From: a virus
Lineage: Duplodnaviria; Caudoviricetes
Reading direction: 5' to 3' (one strand)
Virus record (IMG/VR): IMGVR_UViG_2548876794_000003
Location: 64,001 to 128,000 of that record
DNA length: 64,000 bases
In this document: positions 2,810 through 9,217 of the stretch, piece by piece
Position numbering within the stretch: position 1 is the first letter of the stretch
Layout of the letters: each line of letters opens with the position of its first letter
Notes under the pieces: model-generated
What the model was told of the DNA's origin: nothing
Database searches by the model: none
What the model saw: only the letters and a program-made list of their open reading frames with translations
Position numbers and translations under genes: made by a program

Positions 2810-3154
2810 ATGAAAATTGGACCAACTGGTTCTGATTTAGGAGATTCGATTTTAGCCGCATTTAGTTCTGGCGGTTTTCGAGAAAACATCCTCAATTCAA
2901 ATAAAGCAATTCAAAATGTACATGCTGGCGGTATGCTCGGCGGTATTTCACAATCGGTCAATGCCTATCGAGATACTGGCGACCTTGCAAGATCAATTAA
3001 AGCTGCGCACTCAAATGAAGATGGCGCATTAAACTATGGTCGTATTGCAGGTAGCGTATTGACTGCTGGTGTCGGTTATCGTGCATTAAGTGGTGGTGGT
3101 TTGTATCGTGATAAGGACGGTCAAACAAACATTGCTGGCGTACCGTTTATTTAG
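2810..3154 (+). CDS. small Gly-rich, membrane-type virion protein
   Basis: SD AGGAGG; Gly/Ala-rich hydrophobic segments. Confidence 0.55.
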   Translation: MKIGPTGSDLGDSILAAFSSGGFRENILNSNKAIQNVHAGGMLGGISQSVNAYRDTGDLARSIKAAHSNEDGALNYGRIAGSVLTAGVGYRALSGGGLYRDKDGQTNIAGVPFI

Positions 3155-3166
3155 GAGGGGCTGTAA

Positions 3167-4153
3167 ATGGTATTCTCAAACGGTTTCGCAGTAAGCGGAG
3201 CTCTAGCTGGTGGCGCAGTTGGTGGTACGACAGGTATCATCGCCGCCGCCAATAGTGACAACCCAGCAGGCGTCATGGGCTCTGCCGGTGTCGGTTCTGC
3301 AATTGGGGCAACAGTCGGTGGTATCGGAGCAGGTGTATTACCAAACTTCGGTGAAGCTGGCAAGAAAGTCGGTACTGGTTTAGCAAAAGGTTTATTCGTT
3401 CAACCAGCACATGCTTATATGAATAGCTTCAAAACGGTCTCTGGCAACGGGAGTTTGCGAACAGCTGTCGGCAGTTTAGGCATTGGCAGTGGGATGGCAG
3501 GTGCCGGTATTGGTATGTACTTTGGAAACAAATTCACCGGTGGAGATGGTTCTGGTGCCTTGACTGGTGCCGCGATTGGTGGAGCTGCTGGTTTAGCCGC
3601 GCCATTAGCACTTGGAGCAACGTCTGCAGCAGTTGGTTTTGGAGGAATGGCCTTACTAAAAAACTCTGGGCGTATTATGTCTGGAGTTGGTTCAGTAGGG
3701 ATAGGTACAGCGCTAGGTTCAGCCGCAACAGCTGGGCATCTTCTCGCACCAAAAACGTTGAAAGGTACATCTTTCGATCCGCGTACAGGCAACGCGCTTG
3801 CTCGTGGTGTTAAACGCGCGGGCTACTTTGCGACAAATCCAGTACAAAAATATGCAAAGTTCGCAACAGGCGTTGCTGGCAAGATGTTTAAGTATGAGAA
3901 TGCTTCTGCTAAATTGAACAGCAAAGGTAAGATGGTTCATACACCTGGTCGAATGCGCTTGTCCAAATTAGGATTAGGTGTCGGCGCAGTAGGGATGTTA
4001 ATTGCATCTGGTACATCAGCAACAAAAGATTATCTAAATCGTAGTGGTTCTCCAAGTGGGGCATCGACTCCTACACCAAAACCATACAGCTATGTAGATA
4101 ATGGCGGTGCGACAGGTGACTTAGTGTTTGCTATGCACAACAATCGAAATTAA
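3167..4153 (+). CDS. Gly/Ala-rich (glycine-zipper-like) basic membrane protein
   Basis: Many GxxxG repeats; SD AGGAGG. Confidence 0.6.
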   Translation: MVFSNGFAVSGALAGGAVGGTTGIIAAANSDNPAGVMGSAGVGSAIGATVGGIGAGVLPNFGEAGKKVGTGLAKGLFVQPAHAYMNSFKTVSGNGSLRTAVGSLGIGSGMAGAGIGMYFGNKFTGGDGSGALTGAAIGGAAGLAAPLALGATSAAVGFGGMALLKNSGRIMSGVGSVGIGTALGSAATAGHLLAPKTLKGTSFDPRTGNALARGVKRAGYFATNPVQKYAKFATGVAGKMFKYENASAKLNSKGKMVHTPGRMRLSKLGLGVGAVGMLIASGTSATKDYLNRSGSPSGASTPTPKPYSYVDNGGATGDLVFAMHNNRN

Positions 4154-4168
4154 CAAGGAGGAGATACG

Positions 4169-4609
4169 ATGCCGGCATTAGGTTCTATCCTTCGATCCGC
4201 TTCTGGGTTCAACAAATTCAAGAACTCAAATAAAGGTCGAATGGTCAGCATAGGTCTTAGTGGATTAGGTTTTGTCCATGAATACAATGAAAATCGCGCA
4301 GAAGGCGATGGTGTTGCAAAGTCTGCCGTAAAAGGTGCGGGTAATGCATTCATTATGGATGCTGTCGGGATGCCTGTGTACTTTGGTGCTATGGCGTTAG
4401 GTGGAGCTGTAAAAGGTGGCGGCGCAATCGCTTCAAGTGTTGCACGAACATCAAGAGAGATGGCGCGTAGCAATCAAGCATTTGCGACGTCAACGTTCGT
4501 TGATACTCAACAAGCCTACACGATGCGACAAGCAGGTATGCAACAAGTGCAATCATCCGAAATGAATACAAAACGGGCATTACTCGGTAATGAAGCGAGG
4601 TATATGTAG
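4169..4609 (+). CDS. Gly-rich protein with C-terminal TMRQAGM motif (paralog A)
   Basis: SD AAGGAGG; C-terminus aligns with the next gene. Confidence 0.65.
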   Translation: MPALGSILRSASGFNKFKNSNKGRMVSIGLSGLGFVHEYNENRAEGDGVAKSAVKGAGNAFIMDAVGMPVYFGAMALGGAVKGGGAIASSVARTSREMARSNQAFATSTFVDTQQAYTMRQAGMQQVQSSEMNTKRALLGNEARYM

Positions 4610-5020
4610 ATGAATATTTCGCCCTCTGTATTACGTTCGTTCAAAAAGACAGGAGCACTAGTAACTGCTGGCGCAACGATATTGGATTATGGCATCAATA
4701 AAGCACAAGGTAAGTCGACAATGGAAGCGGCAGGAAGCGCAGCGGGAACAGCTGTAATGTCTCATTTTTTACCATGGTACGCTACGTTTGCTTTGCAAGC
4801 ACATCCTTTATTAAAAGGGGCAGTAGGAGAAAGTGTAAGAGAAGTAGACATGAAGTCACGCGACTTTGCGCGAAACAATCAAGCATTTTCTAACTCTTAC
4901 TTCTCTGATAACTCTCAAACGTTTACGATGCGACAAGCAGGTATGGCCTCAATTGAGCGAGCGAAATATAATCAGCAGAATGCCATGTTAGGTAGCGAAG
5001 CAAAATATATGAACTATTAA
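4610..5020 (+). CDS. protein with C-terminal TMRQAGM motif (paralog B)
   Basis: NQAF...D..Q..TMRQAGM...N....LG.EA.YM shared with 4169-4609. Confidence 0.65.
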   Translation: MNISPSVLRSFKKTGALVTAGATILDYGINKAQGKSTMEAAGSAAGTAVMSHFLPWYATFALQAHPLLKGAVGESVREVDMKSRDFARNNQAFSNSYFSDNSQTFTMRQAGMASIERAKYNQQNAMLGSEAKYMNY

Positions 5021-5035: not shown

Positions 5036-5962
5036 ATGGTTAAAATATCTAGATCAGCACGTAATGCCAAAAACCAGCATCACATCAAACAACACGAAGC
5101 CCTACGAGGGAAATTCGAAAATGATAATATGATGCCTAAGAAGTATGGTTTCGATGAACATGTCGAAGACTATAAAAAACAAGGTGGAGACGTCGGTAAC
5201 TACAAGGATTTTAAAGAATTCGCTCTGCAGAATACAGGACGTAAAACACAAGCTGCAAAAGATATGCAGATGAAAAAAGAAGAAATGCTACGTTTGAATC
5301 GCCACAATACTCAGCAGCGTCAACGAATGCTAGAGGAATCGCGTAAGCCAAATACGAAACCTTCTAGCAACCCTATTGAAATGAGCGCAGCGGAAGAAGC
5401 TCAAATGTTTAGAGAATTGAATCAACCACAAAATGAGAGATCAGTGACTCGACAAGAGCGTAGGCAAGCAGAGAAAGCAAAAGCTCGAACGCAGCGAAGT
5501 GAAGCACCGCCAAAAGGTGTTGACCAATCTTACTACGAAAACGTATATCGAGAAGGAAACTCTCGTCCAGAAAAACGTTTAGCTAAACAACTGGCAAGCA
5601 AGCACATGGGATTACAGAATCATGTAGATACATTCCAAAAAGCAGTGAAGAGTGGAAAGTTAAAGGATGAAGAAGAAATTCGAAGTGAATTACGTGGTAT
5701 CGGTAAACGATTGAATCACAAAGGTGAAGATATGGATGACTGGGTAGATAAAATGAGTTCATCTAAATCATTTGATGGCCTTCAAAAAGAAGTAAAAGAT
5801 CACCGATTCGAAGCAAACTTACATGACAAGATGATAGCGAACAAAGGCTATCAAGCTGGTGTTGGTGCGCTAGGTACAGTCTGGCTTGTGAATAATATGG
5901 CTGCGGGCAAGGGGCAACAATCTAACTCGCAACTTTATGGCCAACAACAGTCCTATTACTAA
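5036..5962 (+). CDS. basic hydrophilic protein with C-terminal hydrophobic segment
   Basis: 308-aa ORF, SD GAGGTG. Confidence 0.6.
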   Translation: MVKISRSARNAKNQHHIKQHEALRGKFENDNMMPKKYGFDEHVEDYKKQGGDVGNYKDFKEFALQNTGRKTQAAKDMQMKKEEMLRLNRHNTQQRQRMLEESRKPNTKPSSNPIEMSAAEEAQMFRELNQPQNERSVTRQERRQAEKAKARTQRSEAPPKGVDQSYYENVYREGNSRPEKRLAKQLASKHMGLQNHVDTFQKAVKSGKLKDEEEIRSELRGIGKRLNHKGEDMDDWVDKMSSSKSFDGLQKEVKDHRFEANLHDKMIANKGYQAGVGALGTVWLVNNMAAGKGQQSNSQLYGQQQSYY

Positions 5963-6004
5963 TAGTAAAAAAATAAAGGACTAAAAAGGGAGTAATAAAT
6001 ACAT

Positions 6005-9000
6005 ATGCCGAAGAATAAATTATCCGCTATCGAAGTAGAACGATTTAAAGAGATTATGGCAAACCCTGTAATGTGGGCTCGTGCATTCATTCGCACCTTC
6101 AATCCGAAGACGAAAAAGCATGAACCTTGGGTAGCCCGCTGGTATCAAGCAGAAATCTTACTAGATGAATCGGTCAAAAAGGTTGCTAGGTGTGGACGCC
6201 GTACGGGTAAACATTTGCTCTTCATTTGTGAATTGCTGGAAGGTCCAACTCCCTTGGAAGAATCAGCAGCCATGTCCTATAGAAATAGGAAGGGTTCAGA
6301 GACTACGAGCGCAAATGTTTTAATACAACACGAGAGAGGTTATGCCACATGAAATTTGTAGCAGAACGAAAAATCGAAAATCGCGTACTATCAGTAAACA
6401 TTAAATTTGATAGCTACGGTGAAGGCGACTTAACAGATGAACAGGAAAAAGCGTTGGTTAGCGCATTCGGCAATCCTGTCATCTCAGTAGGTGGCGAGTT
6501 TAAAGCGAAGTTTGACGAGAAAGGTCAATTCGTAGAAGATCCAGAAGCAATCGGTGAAGAAGTATCGTTCATTATCGTTAATAAGACGGCAGAGCTTGGC
6601 GAGAATTTCGTAGCGTCATATTCTATTGGGTTAGATAAAGCAGCTGCATACATTAATGAAAAATCTCTATTAAAAGAGGATTACTTACAAGCCGTAGCTC
6701 GCTGTGAGCTTTTCGAAAAAACTATCCAAGATCGCGCGGTTGCCGCAGCTGATAAGTTACAAGCAAAATCAACTGCATTCACAACTGGCTACCCACGCGA
6801 TTTCTTTGCATAAGGAGGACGGATCATGCAACTAAAATACACAAGTAGTATTCGTAAACGCATTATCTGCTTAAATGTAGAGACGACAAACTTCACTACA
6901 AACGAGCGAATCGCCTTAGAAGAATTAGGCGAGCCAGTCATTGAAATGGAGAAAATGTTCAAAGGTAAATATCCTGTGCAATTTTCTAAAACAATTCGTA
7001 CTGGCTTGAAGTTAGCTATCCGCTTCGATGGTCGTGAAAATATTGAAGAAGCATCGCAAGCCGCAAATGAATTTGTAGAGGAATTAGGCGAACTAATCCG
7101 TACAAAAATGAGCGACCTTATGGAAACATACGATGATGTCAATTTTATTTTTGACCGTAAGAATGGATTAACTACCCTATAGATTGTATTAAAAAAGATA
7201 TAGTCCGCCCCTGTTTTTAACAGGGTAGCGAAAACAGAGACCATGTGCGTAAATGGTCTTTACAAGGGGTCCACCCAACCAAACCAACGTATTCTGTATG
7301 TTACGCCATACGAGACGCAAGTACGTTTAATCTTTATGCGTCTAAACGAAATGATTGACGGTAGCCCGCTTCTACAAGAGCAAGTTGCTCGTCGTATCAA
7401 AAACCCATTCATGATTGAATTTAAAAATGGCTCTGCTATCATGGGCTTCACGACAGGTGCTTCGTCTGGTACAGGCGGTGCTTCTATTCGTGGCCAACGT
7501 GCCGATTATATTCACATGGATGAAGTGGATTAACCATATAGTCCACTATAAATAGGGTGAATTGCTGGAAGGTTTGGTGTAAAATCTGCATCAGAATAAT
7601 CAGCAGCCATGCTGTTAGGAGGTTTTATTATGGGAGAACTTATTTTCCTAAATGAACATAATGAAGTAAAAGAAGCGATTGAACACGACAAACAGGACAT
7701 GTTGAATATGCTAGACACAATCCAAAAAGTAGTAGAGGATGGCGAAGCTGTCTCTTTATACATTGGATGTGCGCTAACAGACAATACAAGTATAAGCTGG
7801 TCATCTGGACGTTTTAATTATAACCAACGCGCCAGACTAATTAGTGAATTACATGATGAACAATGTGCTCATGCTTTAGATTTACTTGATGACTAACGGA
7901 GGGTTCAGAGACTATTAATAGCGCCCTACATAGATGATATAGTCCGAAGTGAAAACGTATATGACCGAAGCTGACTTTGATACCGTAACAACAATTGCCG
8001 CTGAACGTAGCGACATCGGTATCTTCTTGTCATCTACTCCAACAGGTGCTCGCTCTAAGTTCTATCAAGCGTGTACCGATAAATCAATGGGCTTCACTGA
8101 ACATTTCCATCCATCAAGCCATAACCCGAACTGGGATGCCACGATGGAAGCTCAATTCAGAGCTCAACTTACGCCGTCTGGTTACACGCATGAAATCGAA
8201 GCAGATTTCGGCGCGCAAGATACCGGTGTATTCAACAAAGATAAGGTCGATAAAGCAATGTCATTCCAAAACTATTACTACAATCCGCTATCTGTTATCC
8301 AGTTGGATCGCGTGAAGCGTGAAGCGGAGAATGGGACCCCGACACCAATTAACAGAGTGTACGATGGTATACCTGTGCCACGAAATACATTCCGTACGAT
8401 GGGCGTCGACTGGGATAAATACCAAGCATCAAGTAGTATATTGATAATGGACTATGACATTGAATCGAAAAAATTCATTGTTGTTAAACGTATTGAAGTA
8501 CCGAAAGCGGAGTATTCATACGATGCAGCAGTTAATTTGATTGTTGAACTAAACGAAATATATAATCCGACATGGATCTACTGTGACCGCGGATCAGGCG
8601 AGTATCAAATAGAACGTCTACATATTATTGGGGAAGAACGTCCAGAGACGGGCCTTAAACATAAAGTGAAGGGCTGGCAGTTTGCTAACAAAATTGACGT
8701 AATGGACCCAGTTACAAAAGAGATGGTTAAAGAGCCAATGAAACCATTCATGGTTAACCAATTGATTATGGCCTTCGAGCGTGAGCAATTGATTCTTTCT
8801 CCATTCGATGAAATCTTACATAAGCAATTAATCGACTATGAAGTAGTGCGCCAGCAACAAAATGGTGCGCCAATTTTCACTTCTGAAAATGAACACTTTG
8901 TCGATACATTAGGTTTGGCTTTCCTTGCATTCGTACTCGAATTTACGGAGCTTACCAATACAATCAAAAAAGTTCGATATGAAATGGCGATGTCATCTAT

Positions 9001-9217
9001 ACAAAAACGCCCTGGTCAAAAACGTGTAGAAACATCGTTACGCCAAGCAGCCGCAAGTGAAACAAGCTTTAGTCAACAAATTGAAGCGGCACACCATGAC
9101 GGCGACCTACCAGGGGATCGTCCTACATGGACGCAAGTACGAAATTCTTCTCGTCGACGCTCTAACGGACGCGGTTGGGGGAGTCGTACAGGCGGCGCAA
9201 CAAGAACTGTTTGGTAA
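6005..9217 (+). CDS. terL: terminase large subunit, spliced: join(6005..6208,7231..7530,7958..9217), 587 aa
   Basis: Joining restores Walker A CGRRTG|KTETM and Walker B YIHMDEVD|YM. Also Q motif RWYQ, SIRGQRAD, coupling motif SSTP, and RNase H-like nuclease MGVDW...HFVD. Confidence 0.92.
6349..6813 (+). CDS. intron-encoded protein 1, function unknown, no homing-endonuclease motif seen
   Basis: 154 aa, SD GAGAGG, acidic; no LAGLIDADG, GIY-YIG or HNH motif. Confidence 0.8.
   Translation: MKFVAERKIENRVLSVNIKFDSYGEGDLTDEQEKALVSAFGNPVISVGGEFKAKFDEKGQFVEDPEAIGEEVSFIIVNKTAELGENFVASYSIGLDKAAAYINEKSLLKEDYLQAVARCELFEKTIQDRAVAAADKLQAKSTAFTTGYPRDFFA
6826..7182 (+). CDS. intron-encoded protein 2, probable distant paralog of 6349-6813
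   Basis: 118 aa, SD AAGGAGG; shares the pattern I..R....N...E.....G.PVI.....FK.K. Confidence 0.8.
   Translation: MQLKYTSSIRKRIICLNVETTNFTTNERIALEELGEPVIEMEKMFKGKYPVQFSKTIRTGLKLAIRFDGRENIEEASQAANEFVEELGELIRTKMSDLMETYDDVNFIFDRKNGLTTL
7531..7957 (+). mobile_element. group I intron 2 in terL (427 nt), ORF in the P6a loop
   Basis: P1 AGUGGAU/GUCCACU with U7530-G7541. P10 CAUAUA (7535-7540) pairs with exon UAUAUG (7958-7963). P3 7553-7559/7922-7928. P, Q, R, S elements present. P6a 7612-7618/7893-7899; terminal G7957. Confidence 0.93.
7630..7896 (+). CDS. intron-encoded small acidic protein (88 aa), function unknown
   Basis: SD AGGAGG 7617-7622, ATG 7630; no endonuclease motif. Confidence 0.75.
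   Translation: MGELIFLNEHNEVKEAIEHDKQDMLNMLDTIQKVVEDGEAVSLYIGCALTDNTSISWSSGRFNYNQRARLISELHDEQCAHALDLLDD

What the first reader, a model, noticed from the sequence alone, without database searches (positions are those of the whole stretch)
7531..7957. Second intron carries an unrelated small gene in a different loop (P6a)
Seen: an 88-aa acidic ORF fills the P6a loop. Its SD overlaps the 5' stem strand and its TAA lies within the 3' strand. It has no nuclease motif. Inference: independent cargo capture by the same ribozyme lineage, suggesting a family of gene-carrying group I introns rather than a single accident.
Basis: partly seen in the sequence, partly recalled or inferred. Interest (0 to 1): 0.7.

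Follow-up and report, generated by a model that had tools for sequence, protein, structure and literature searches.

The report
Phage intron carrying a non-nuclease gene
A very stripped-down self-splicing intron in a gut phage's DNA-packaging gene carries, in one of its RNA loops, a small acidic protein gene that is conserved and under selection but is not the usual homing nuclease; its function is unknown.

Summary
Window 7531-7957 is a 427-nt group I intron at the Walker B codon junction (DEVD|Y) of terL. Removing it and its sibling (6209-7230) gives a TerL that aligns without gaps to intron-free relatives.

An 88-aa ORF (7630-7896, pI 4.4) fills the P6a loop. The P6a stem is 7612-7618/7893-7899. 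The SD starts on the last stem base and the TAA lies in the 3' strand.

The gene is real:
- 6 of 7 polymorphisms among about 99.6%-identical relatives are synonymous.
- A diverged phage fragment (L014) has an 87-aa homologue (43% identity over 61 residues). It sits in the same loop of the same intron, with compensatory changes in P10, P3 and P6a.

No nuclease or other family matches. Both AlphaFold models show a helix, beta-hairpin, helix topology.

The ribozyme belongs to a widespread phage intron family whose other cargo is EndoVII/HNH or LAGLIDADG. It has lost P2, P7.1/7.2, P8 and P9, leaving a 153-nt core.

"Independent capture" is only partly supported. The cargo differs from intron 1's, but no free-standing donor gene was found.

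Earlier notes of this scan concern this same genome only.

The parts
7231..7530 (+). terL exon 2 (100 codons, ends ...HMDEVD, Walker B)
   Evidence: Gap-free alignment of the spliced product with intron-free TerL of MTATph1 and 0305phi8-36; PHROG 675 terminase large subunit.
7531..7957 (+). Group I intron 2 (427 nt; 153 nt without the P6a loop)
   Evidence: U before the 5' splice site, terminal G, and P1, P10, P3-P7 pairings. The site is empty in about 50 terL relatives. The orthologous intron is present in L014.
7531..7533 (+). TAA in frame with exon 2, formed by the first three intron bases; it stops exon-2 ribosomes at the splice site
   Evidence: Sequence. The role of such stops in letting the intron fold is discussed in PMC3984707.
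7525..7546 (+). P1: exon GUGGAU (7525-7530) pairs with the internal guide GUCCAC (7541-7546), with a U.G wobble at the splice site
   Evidence: The same pairing occurs in L014 intron C. L014 intron B has GCGGAU/GUCCGC, a compensatory version.
7535..7540 (+). P10 guide CAUAUA, which pairs with the first six bases of exon 3 (UAUAUG, 7958-7963)
   Evidence: L014 has AUGUA/UACAU: the exon's synonymous TAT-to-TAC change is matched by A-to-G in the guide.
7553..7559 (+). P3 5' strand UAGGGUG (partner CGCCCUA, 7922-7928)
   Evidence: Compensatory versions occur in five sibling introns: UUUGUG/CGCAAA, CAGGGUG/CGCCCUG, UUAGGUG/CGCCUAA, CUGGUG/CGCCAG.
7562..7606 (+). P4 (7562-7567/7601-7606) enclosing P5 (7573-7579/7589-7595)
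   Evidence: The blocks GAATTGCTGGAAGGT and AATCAGCAGCCATG are identical in intron 1 and conserved in about 70 IMG/VR family members.
7607..7618 (+). P6 (CC, 7607-7608) and the P6a 5' strand (CUGUUAG, 7612-7618)
   Evidence: In L014 intron C the P6a stem is CUGUUAA/UUAACAG, with one double-compensatory pair.
7618..7622 (+). Shine-Dalgarno GGAGG of ORF88; its first base is the last base of the P6a 5' strand; 7 nt spacer to the ATG
   Evidence: Sequence. L014 has AAGGAG at the equivalent place.
7630..7896 (+). ORF88: 88-aa acidic protein (P0001) in the P6a loop; the stop TAA 7894-7896 lies in the P6a 3' strand
   Evidence: 6 synonymous versus 1 non-synonymous polymorphism. 87-aa homologue P0006 in the same loop of L014. 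pI 4.4. Helix, beta-hairpin, helix models.
7893..7903 (+). P6a 3' strand (CUAACGG, 7893-7899) and P6 3' strand (GG, 7902-7903)
7910..7944 (+). P7 5' strand GACUA (7910-7914), J7/3, P3 3' strand (7922-7928), a 3-4 nt linker in place of P8, J8/7 AGAUGAUA (7932-7939), P7 3' strand UAGUC (7940-7944)
   Evidence: Comparison with family members that have P7.1/7.2 and P8 and with the P8-containing sibling intron in L007.
7945..7957 (+). 13-nt 3' tail ending in the terminal G (7957); no P9 hairpin
   Evidence: Family members have P9, P9.1 and P9.2 here.
7958..9217 (+). terL exon 3 (419 codons)
6209..7230 (+). Sibling intron 1 at Walker A (GRRTG|KT), with two paralogous cargo genes in its P8 loop (context, not the finding)
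   Evidence: Cargo homologues lie free-standing upstream of terL in L251, L282 and L257.

Best explanation
Window 7531-7957 is a functional, strongly reduced group I intron of the phage IA2-like family. It interrupts terL between the Walker B Asp codon and the next codon.

Shown:
- The RNA keeps P1, P10, P3, P4, P5, P6, P6a, P7 and J8/7.
- It has lost P2, P7.1/7.2, P8 and P9.
- Its P6a stem closes a 274-nt loop that holds a real protein-coding gene, ORF88. The gene has its own strong SD and no own promoter.
- ORF88 is not a nuclease by any test available.

Inferred mechanism:
- terL is transcribed as one pre-mRNA.
- Exon-2 ribosomes stop at the TAA made by the first three intron bases, which lets the ribozyme fold.
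- P6a brings the ends of the insert together, so the core tolerates the cargo.
- ORF88 is translated from the pre-mRNA or the excised intron. Its stop codon lies in the P6a 3' strand, a few bases before P6 and P7. A terminating ribosome must therefore melt the core, so translation and splicing of one molecule alternate. By recollection, the I-TevI gene in the T4 td intron behaves this way.

Most likely role (about 55%): a trans-acting, fast-evolving accessory protein that rides in the intron. It would be a small acidic helical-hairpin protein that binds another protein, for example in phage-host or phage-phage conflict. It would be made late together with terminase and would take no part in splicing or homing.
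For: Intron:
- The spliced TerL aligns gap-free with intron-free homologues.
- The DEVD|Y site is empty in about 50 relatives.
- P1 has a U.G wobble, the intron ends in G, and P10 and P3-P7 pair as expected.
- There are double-compensatory changes against the L014 orthologue in P10, P3 and P6a.
- The RNA parts are about 85-90% identical between the two lineages by my count from the alignment, although synonymous exon sites differ at 64%.
- Sibling introns with the same core blocks score 70-79 bits on Rfam RF00028.

Gene:
- 6 of 7 polymorphisms among 10 relatives are synonymous, P = 0.009.
- A homologue of the same length sits in the same loop with the same MGE[LI][IL]FLNEH start despite synonymous differences.
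- Both have an SD at the same place.
- The two AlphaFold models give the same topology; the P0006 model has pLDDT 74.8.

Not a nuclease or maturase:
- No Pfam, PHROG or NCBIfam match.
- pI 4.4 and 4.5.

Fast evolution:
- dN is 0.57 for ORF88 against 0.077 for the adjacent exon over the same lineage split.

Transcription:
- No promoter or terminator signal inside the intron.
Against: - Splicing and translation are inferred, not observed.
- P8 is a conserved core helix of group I introns. A P8- and P9-less intron may not self-splice and may need a helper, which leaves room for the cofactor rival.
- The function of ORF88 is unsupported by any homology. Only two sequence clusters exist and no structural match was found.
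- The 'conflict protein' role rests only on size, charge and evolutionary rate.
- The polymorphism test rests on 7 sites.
Confidence: 0.55

Rival explanations
1. ORF88 is a splicing cofactor, a new non-LAGLIDADG 'maturase'. It would stabilise the reduced ribozyme in place of the missing P8/P9 domain, for its own intron and, in L014, for the neighbouring ORF-less P8-less intron B.
For: - P8-less members of this family were seen only in the two lineages that carry ORF88 or ORF87: window intron 2 and L014 introns B and C.
- About 70 other family members keep P8. A targeted IMG/VR pattern scan found no other P8-less member; its hits kept a short P8 hairpin or were not introns.
- The P8-containing siblings (intron 1, the L007 third intron, L014 intron A) show that the loss is specific.
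Against: - Net charge is -12 and -9, which is unfavourable for RNA binding.
- There is no similarity to any RNA-binding or maturase family.
- The co-occurrence rests on two related lineages, so it is effectively one evolutionary event.
- The protein evolves about 7 times faster than TerL, while the RNA it would bind is highly conserved.
Confidence: 0.12
2. ORF88 is linked to the host gene. It would be a small coiled-coil, prefoldin-beta-like chaperone or regulator of terminase or packaging, kept in the intron so that its dosage follows terL transcription.
For: - It is obligately co-transcribed with terL.
- Intron 1's cargo genes are normally terL-adjacent genes, so this gene neighbourhood tends to end up in terL introns.
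- The helix, beta-hairpin, helix topology resembles prefoldin beta: 1fxk_A at Z 5.5 with 72 residues aligned, and Pfam Prefoldin_2 at E 0.015 for P0006 only.
Against: - Both prefoldin signals are within noise. Z below 8 is common for helical hairpins, and P0001 does not hit the Pfam model.
- No homologue lies near terL in any of 53 relatives, which package DNA without it.
- The rapid evolution is unlike a partner of the slowly evolving TerL.
Confidence: 0.13
3. ORF88 is the decaying remnant of a homing endonuclease gene that once occupied P6a. It is either no longer functional, or it keeps only a domain.
For: - By recollection, P6a is the classic HEG site in T4 td and nrdB introns.
- One weak PADLOC hit to a model called HEase: E 0.004, 14.9 bits, residues 22-77.
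- The intron has no nuclease of its own.
Against: - Synonymous polymorphisms are in excess.
- The ORF is intact at the same length, with a conserved N-terminus, in a lineage where synonymous sites are saturated.
- P0006 does not hit the HEase model, and the model finds nothing in this genome.
- There is no GIY-YIG, HNH, LAGLIDADG or PD-(D/E)xK motif.
- The protein is acidic.
Confidence: 0.07

Closest known systems
Phage T4 td intron with I-TevI (group IA2); comparison from my own knowledge, with Gibb & Edgell 2010 as cited in PMC3984707
   Same: A group I intron in an essential phage gene. An ORF with its own SD is looped out of P6a and its 3' end runs into core pairings, so translation and splicing interfere. 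There is an in-frame stop early in the intron.
   Different: The cargo here is an 88-aa acidic protein with no nuclease motif, instead of a 245-aa GIY-YIG endonuclease. The ribozyme lacks P2, P7.1/7.2, P8 and P9. No late promoter or significant SD-sequestering hairpin was found.
IA2-like phage intron family seen in IMG/VR and in terL of close relatives (L017, L030, L014 intron A, L007 third intron; Rfam RF00028 at 62-81 bits)
   Same: Identical or near-identical P3/J3-4/P4, P4'/P6, P6'/J6-7/P7 and J8/7-P7' blocks. The guide-sequence layout is the same, with the P10 partner directly 5' of the P1 partner.
   Different: Those members keep P2, P7.1/7.2, P8 and P9-P9.2. They are ORF-less or carry EndoVII/HNH or LAGLIDADG genes in other loops (P5, and downstream of P7). 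Intron 2 is not detected by RF00028 even at E <= 10.
Intron 1 of the same terL (6209-7230), with orthologues in L199 and L267
   Same: Same ribozyme lineage, same gene, cargo without a nuclease motif, conserved across lineages.
   Different: Intron 1's cargo is two paralogous genes in the P8 loop with free-standing homologues upstream of terL in intron-free relatives. ORF88 is unrelated, lies in P6a, has no known free-standing homologue, and is shared with a much closer lineage only.
Fungal mitochondrial mL2449 group I intron encoding ribosomal protein Rps3 (my own knowledge)
   Same: A group I intron loop houses a conserved gene that is not a homing endonuclease or maturase.
   Different: That cargo is a known host housekeeping gene in an organelle rRNA intron. 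Here the cargo is an orphan phage protein in a protein-coding gene's intron.
Introns in terL of Bastillevirinae phages (PMC11878797)
   Same: Multiple group I introns in phage terL genes. Some splice only in vivo.
   Different: All loop-encoded proteins reported there were classed as endonucleases. None is a small acidic non-nuclease protein.

Membership tests
Group I intron | P1 helix between the 5' exon end and an internal guide, with a U.G wobble at the splice site | tested here: met
   GUGGAU (7525-7530) pairs with GUCCAC (7541-7546), with U7530.G7541. A compensatory version occurs in L014 intron B (GCGGAU/GUCCGC).
Group I intron | Terminal guanosine at the 3' splice site, and P10 pairing of the guide with the 3' exon | tested here: met
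   G7957. CAUAUA (7535-7540) pairs with UAUAUG (7958-7963). An A-U to G-C double change in L014 is coupled to a synonymous exon change.
Group I intron | Core helices P3-P7 in the canonical order, with the P3/P7 pseudoknot and the P4-P6 domain | tested here: met
   All are located and complementary. P3 differs compensatorily in five siblings. Blocks are shared with about 70 family members.
Group I intron | Conserved J8/7-P7' segment and P7 (guanosine-binding helix) | tested here: met
   AGAUGAUAUAGUCC at 7932-7945 matches the family and the Rfam consensus AAGAUAUAGUC.
Group I intron | P8 helix between P3' and J8/7 | tested here: not met
   Only 3 nt (7929-7931) separate P3' from J8/7 and no hairpin is possible. 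The same holds in L014 introns B and C. Siblings have P8.
Group I intron | P9 helix after P7' | tested here: not met
   A 13-nt unstructured tail, 7945-7957.
Group I intron | Score at or above the gathering threshold of Rfam RF00028 | tested here: not met
   No hit to intron 2 at gathering or at E <= 10. Siblings L014 intron A (79 bits) and the L007 third intron (70.5 bits) pass.
Group I intron | Guanosine-dependent self-splicing | not testable with these tools
   Inferred from the essential host gene, conservation in at least 24 contigs, and conservation of the RNA above the synonymous rate.
Subgroup IA2 (phage type) | P7.1/P7.2 between P7 and P3' | tested here: not met
   Only 7 nt (UUAAUAG, 7915-7921) lie between P7 and P3'. 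Typical relatives have two hairpins there.
Homing endonucleases (LAGLIDADG, GIY-YIG, HNH/His-Me, PD-(D/E)xK, EDxHD) | Match to a family model or a catalytic motif | tested here: not met
   Pfam, PHROGs and NCBIfam give nothing. The PADLOC HEase hit at 14.9 bits, E 0.004, is not shared by P0006 and is not found in the genome scan.
Group I intron maturases | LAGLIDADG-derived fold, or a basic RNA-binding surface | tested here: not met
   No LAGLIDADG match. pI 4.4 and 4.5, net charge -12 and -9.
Prefoldin beta-like coiled-coil hairpin | Helix, beta-hairpin, helix with an antiparallel coiled coil, and a significant match to a model or structure | tested here: inconclusive
   The topology fits. 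1fxk_A gives Z 5.5, rmsd 3.6 over 72 residues, within the noise for helical hairpins. Pfam Prefoldin_2 gives E 0.015 for P0006 only.

The most novel reading that the evidence does not exclude
ORF88 is a new kind of intron-encoded splicing cofactor. It would make up for the missing P8/P9 domain, so that intron 2 (and L014 introns B and C) would be protein-dependent mini group I introns with cores of about 140-155 nt, the smallest natural ones known. A weaker version is also open: the 153-nt core self-splices without P8 and P9, which would redefine the minimal natural group I ribozyme.
Probability: 0.12. Interest if true: 0.85.

Novelty: new variant of a known kind. Interest (0 to 1): 0.62.

Why it matters
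Loop ORFs of phage group I introns are, as far as surveys report, homing endonucleases (PMC11878797, PMC3984707). Here a conserved non-nuclease gene under selection lives in the loop. This shows that an intron can serve as a stable address for ordinary or accessory phage genes.

It also gives a simple test system. Expression of the cargo is tied to transcription of an essential late gene, and its translation must alternate with ribozyme folding.

The carrier ribozyme lacks P8 and P9 yet is conserved above the synonymous rate. That makes the minimal requirements of natural group I splicing directly testable with a minigene of about 150 nt.

The same clade shows three intron sites, plus inteins, in TerL catalytic motifs, and an intron present or absent among 99.6%-identical strains. 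It is therefore a good natural system for studying intron spread without an intron-encoded nuclease.

Tried and rejected
- Rfam on the window (gathering) and on 6300-8200 (E <= 10). Nothing on intron 2; only a 15-bit hit on the 3' end of intron 1.
- Pfam PF09356 Phage_BR0599 (18.9 bits, below its cut-off of 22.9) and the PADLOC HEase hit. Neither is shared by the homologue P0006, so both are treated as chance.
- The exhaustive phmmer hits P0005 and P0007 are long repeat proteins and spurious.
- The metagenome hit L303 is a bacterial patatin-like membrane protein that matched the peptide pattern. It is not a homologue.
- No homologue in IMG/VR by peptide patterns, in GenBank phages by tblastn, in the rest of this genome, or within 4 kb of terL in 53 relatives.
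- The ESM Atlas gave only unnamed clusters.
- PDB sequence profile: nothing below E 0.01.
- Foldseek against BFVD with the P0001 model and against PDB with the P0006 model: nothing at E <= 0.001. MADS-box rows have a similar topology but TM <= 0.34.
- VIA wide search: best Z 5.8, generic helical hairpins.
- A hairpin sequestering the SD or start codon: the folds are not better than shuffles, z -0.9 and -0.7.
- A possible L5 to J3/8 kissing pair (AUCU/AGAU) is not conserved in L014 and was dropped.
- No own promoter or terminator in the intron.
- GC content of the ORF (36.7%, against 39.5% for the genome) is not distinctive.
- No covariance model was built. Exact core blocks and hand-checked covariation were used instead.
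Full report
**Setting.** The window is bases 64001-128000 of a single 178,960-bp phage contig. Its TerL is distantly related to those of Moorella phage MTATph1 (46%) and Bacillus phages vB_BceM_WH1 and 0305phi8-36. No GenBank phage is close at the DNA level. About two dozen contigs from gut and other metagenomes are 99.4-99.8% identical over this region.

**The intron is real.** terL appears as three ORF fragments.
- Joining 6005-6208, 7231-7530 and 7958-9217 gives a 587-aa protein.
- This protein aligns without any gap at either junction with the uninterrupted TerL of MTATph1 and 0305phi8-36: GRRTG|KTETM against GRRTGKTTTV, and MDEVD|YMTEAD against LDEIDYMDEGE.
- The finding's coordinates, 7531-7957, are therefore exactly the second intervening sequence.
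- Among 53 terL relatives fetched from IMG/VR, this DEVD|Y site is empty in all but three cases: the window's own species, the L014 lineage, and L267. L267 holds a 331-nt, full-size, ORF-less intron at the same phosphodiester bond.

**Anatomy of the RNA.** I derived the following by eye and checked it by script.

| Element | Pairing or sequence | Coordinates |
|---|---|---|
| P1 | GUGGAU / GUCCAC, U.G at the splice site | 7525-7530 / 7541-7546 |
| P10 | CAUAUA / UAUAUG | 7535-7540 / 7958-7963 |
| P3 | UAGGGUG / CGCCCUA | 7553-7559 / 7922-7928 |
| P4 | UUGCUG / CAGCAG | 7562-7567 / 7601-7606 |
| P5 | 7 bp | 7573-7579 / 7589-7595 |
| P6 | CC / GG | 7607-7608 / 7902-7903 |
| P6a | CUGUUAG / CUAACGG | 7612-7618 / 7893-7899 |
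| P7 | GACUA / UAGUC | 7910-7914 / 7940-7944 |
| J8/7 | AGAUGAUA | 7932-7939 |
| Terminal G | | 7957 |

- The first three intron bases are TAA, in frame with exon 2.
- Four blocks are identical in intron 1 and occur nowhere else in the genome.

**Family.**
- The same blocks pulled about 70 introns out of 250 IMG/VR loci.
- Typical members have P2, P7.1/7.2, P8 and P9-P9.2. Rfam RF00028 recognises them at 62-81 bits.
- These include two close siblings: L014 intron A (79 bits) and a third terL intron present in some strains of this very phage (L007:4809-5057, 70.5 bits).
- Intron 2 itself gets no Rfam hit even at E <= 10, because it is heavily reduced. It has no P2. Seven nt stand in place of P7.1/7.2, 3 nt (7929-7931) in place of P8, and a 13-nt tail in place of P9.
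- Without the P6a loop it measures 153 nt.
- The L007 sibling shares the unusual J7/3 UUAAUAG with intron 2 but keeps P8 and P9. The reduction is therefore a derived loss.
- A pattern scan of IMG/VR for compact P7...J8/7 arrangements found 35 stretches. The intron-like ones keep a short P8 hairpin and a few are not introns at all, so none is a further P8-less member.
- P8-less members were seen only in the window and in L014 introns B and C.

**Evidence that the reduced intron works.**
- TerL is essential, and the intron is fixed in all near-identical contigs.
- The orthologous intron in L014 has the same reduced architecture.
- The two differ by double-compensatory changes. In P10 an A-U pair becomes G-C, and the exon side of that change is a synonymous TAT-to-TAC. 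In P3 a U-A pair becomes C-G. In P6a a G-C pair becomes A-U.
- Between the two lineages, synonymous sites of the adjacent exon differ at 64%. The intron RNA parts are about 85-90% identical by my count from the alignment.
- Splicing itself was not observed.

**The ORF.**
- ATG 7630 to TAA 7894-7896 encodes 88 residues.
- GGAGG (7618-7622) lies 7 nt upstream of the ATG. Its first G is the last base of the P6a 5' strand. The TAA lies inside the 3' strand.
- The 95-aa form from ATG 7609 that gene callers report has no SD, and the ATG is absent in L014.
- Among ten relatives the ORF has 7 variable sites, of which 6 are synonymous. P = 0.0003 against all possible changes and 0.009 against transitions only. 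In either other frame only 1 of 7 would be synonymous.
- An exhaustive phmmer search of 1.84 billion representatives found its own cluster and one true homologue, P0006 (87 aa, 43% identity over 61 residues), plus two spurious repeat proteins.
- P0006 is encoded on L014, a 913-nt contig, in the P6a loop of the intron at the same DEVD|Y site. Its SD directly follows the 5' strand and its TAA lies in the 3' strand.
- The N-terminal MGE[LI][IL]FLNEH and the K[VM]VEDGE motif are conserved despite synonymous differences.
- dN between the two genes is 0.57, against 0.077 for the flanking exon. The protein is maintained but evolves about 7 times faster than TerL.

**What the protein is not, and the little that can be said.**
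- It is acidic: pI 4.40, net charge -12. P0006 has pI 4.51.
- Pfam, PHROGs, NCBIfam, PADLOC and PDB sequence searches give no significant match and none shared by both homologues.
- A weak PADLOC 'HEase' hit (14.9 bits) is not shared by P0006 and does not reappear in a genome scan.
- It is unrelated to the two cargo proteins of intron 1 and has no paralogue in the genome.
- AlphaFold gives the same topology for both homologues: a long helix, a beta-hairpin and a second helix. pLDDT is 56 for P0001 and 74.8 for P0006.
- Structure searches return only generic helical hairpins. Prefoldin beta appears at Z 5.5 and MADS-like rows at TM about 0.3, all within noise.

**How it most likely works.**
- There is no promoter- or terminator-like signal inside the intron. 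The ORF must therefore be read from the terL pre-mRNA or from the excised intron.
- The TAA at the intron's first codon releases exon-2 ribosomes. The review PMC3984707 connects this feature with letting the intron fold.
- P6a clamps the 274-nt insert.
- The ORF's stop lies only about 6 nt before the P6 3' strand and 14 nt before P7. A terminating ribosome must therefore unfold the core, so translation and splicing of a given molecule must alternate. By my own recollection, this is the situation described for I-TevI in the td intron (Gibb & Edgell 2010, listed in PMC3984707).
- I found no significant SD-masking hairpin.
- My best guess for the role, at about 55%, is a trans-acting accessory protein riding in the intron.
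- The rivals are a splicing cofactor (12%), a packaging-linked factor (13%) and a nuclease remnant (7%).

**On 'independent capture'.**
- Intron 1's two cargo genes are found free-standing, in the same order, just upstream of terL in the intron-free relatives L251, L282 (one gene detected) and L257 (one gene detected). They lie inside the orthologous intron in L199 and L267.
- For ORF88 no donor is known.
- The ORF88 arrangement is shared only with L014, whose TerL fragment is about 89% identical to the window's.
- L199 (65% identical) has intron 1 with cargo but an empty intron 2 site.
- The two cargo events are thus different in content, loop and age. Only the first can be called a capture on present evidence.
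- In my sample of the wider family, most of the long loop inserts I examined hold endonuclease ORFs: EndoVII/HNH-type (L062, L186, L129) or LAGLIDADG_2 (L129, L040). A survey of Bastillevirinae introns likewise reports only endonucleases (PMC11878797).

**Verdict.**
- The item is a new variant of a known kind: a group I intron with a loop ORF. It is made interesting by a conserved non-nuclease cargo and by a ribozyme that has lost P8 and P9.

Noticed in passing
L007:4809-5057 (also L009); site = window about 8417, between GAT and AAA of ...VDWD|KYQ: Some strains about 99.5% identical to the window carry a third, 249-nt ORF-less intron of the same lineage in the TerL nuclease motif. It has P8 and P9 and scores 70.5 bits on Rfam RF00028. 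The window and most relatives lack it. Intron presence or absence is thus polymorphic within one phage species, without any intron-encoded nuclease.
   Followed up: partly
L014:1-780: A 913-nt contig of a related phage (TerL fragment about 89% identical) has three sibling introns within 780 nt. They are separated by micro-exons of 18 nt (RGQRAD) and 24 nt (YIHMDEVD). Introns B (142 nt, ORF-less) and C sit at near-identical GGAT|TATAT sites 24 nt apart, which suggests ectopic spread to a look-alike site. Intron B would be an exceptionally small group I intron.
   Followed up: partly
window 6261-6305, 7598-7914; L007:4920-4975; L014: The three introns of the window's species all read CAGCCATG...AGGGTTCA, whereas all three introns of L014 read CAGCCAAx...GAAGGTTCA. 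Introns within one genome are more alike at these positions than orthologous introns in different genomes. This suggests gene conversion between intron copies in the same gene.
   Followed up: no
L253:2270-5275 and L264:2813-5248: In these terL relatives the Walker A site (GRR[IT]GK|C...HN|TET) holds an in-frame intein instead of intron 1. The same P-loop codon is thus used by both inteins and group I introns in this clade.
   Followed up: no
L267:3670-4000 and about 4441-4776: L267 has a full-size 331-nt ORF-less intron at exactly the intron 2 site. It has the same GUCCAC guide but a divergent P3-P6 and is not detected by Rfam. It also has intron 1 with cargo and a further Rfam-positive intron in exon 3.
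   Followed up: partly
window 6349-7182; L251:2577-3403; L199:1710-2567: Homologues of the two intron 1 cargo genes (154 and 118 aa) lie free-standing directly upstream of terL in the intron-free relative L251, with one of the two detected in L282 and in L257. They lie inside the intron in L199 and L267.
   Followed up: partly
L012, equivalent to window 7378: One short gut-metagenome contig has G>T at window 7378, turning Glu50 of exon 2 into a stop. It is probably a sequencing or assembly error or a defective genome.
   Followed up: no
L030 (four RF00028 hits at 3089-4943) and L111 (three core matches at 5431-6209): Other IMG/VR contigs carry three or four introns of this family packed within 1-2 kb. 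Multi-intron genes seem common for this ribozyme lineage.
   Followed up: no
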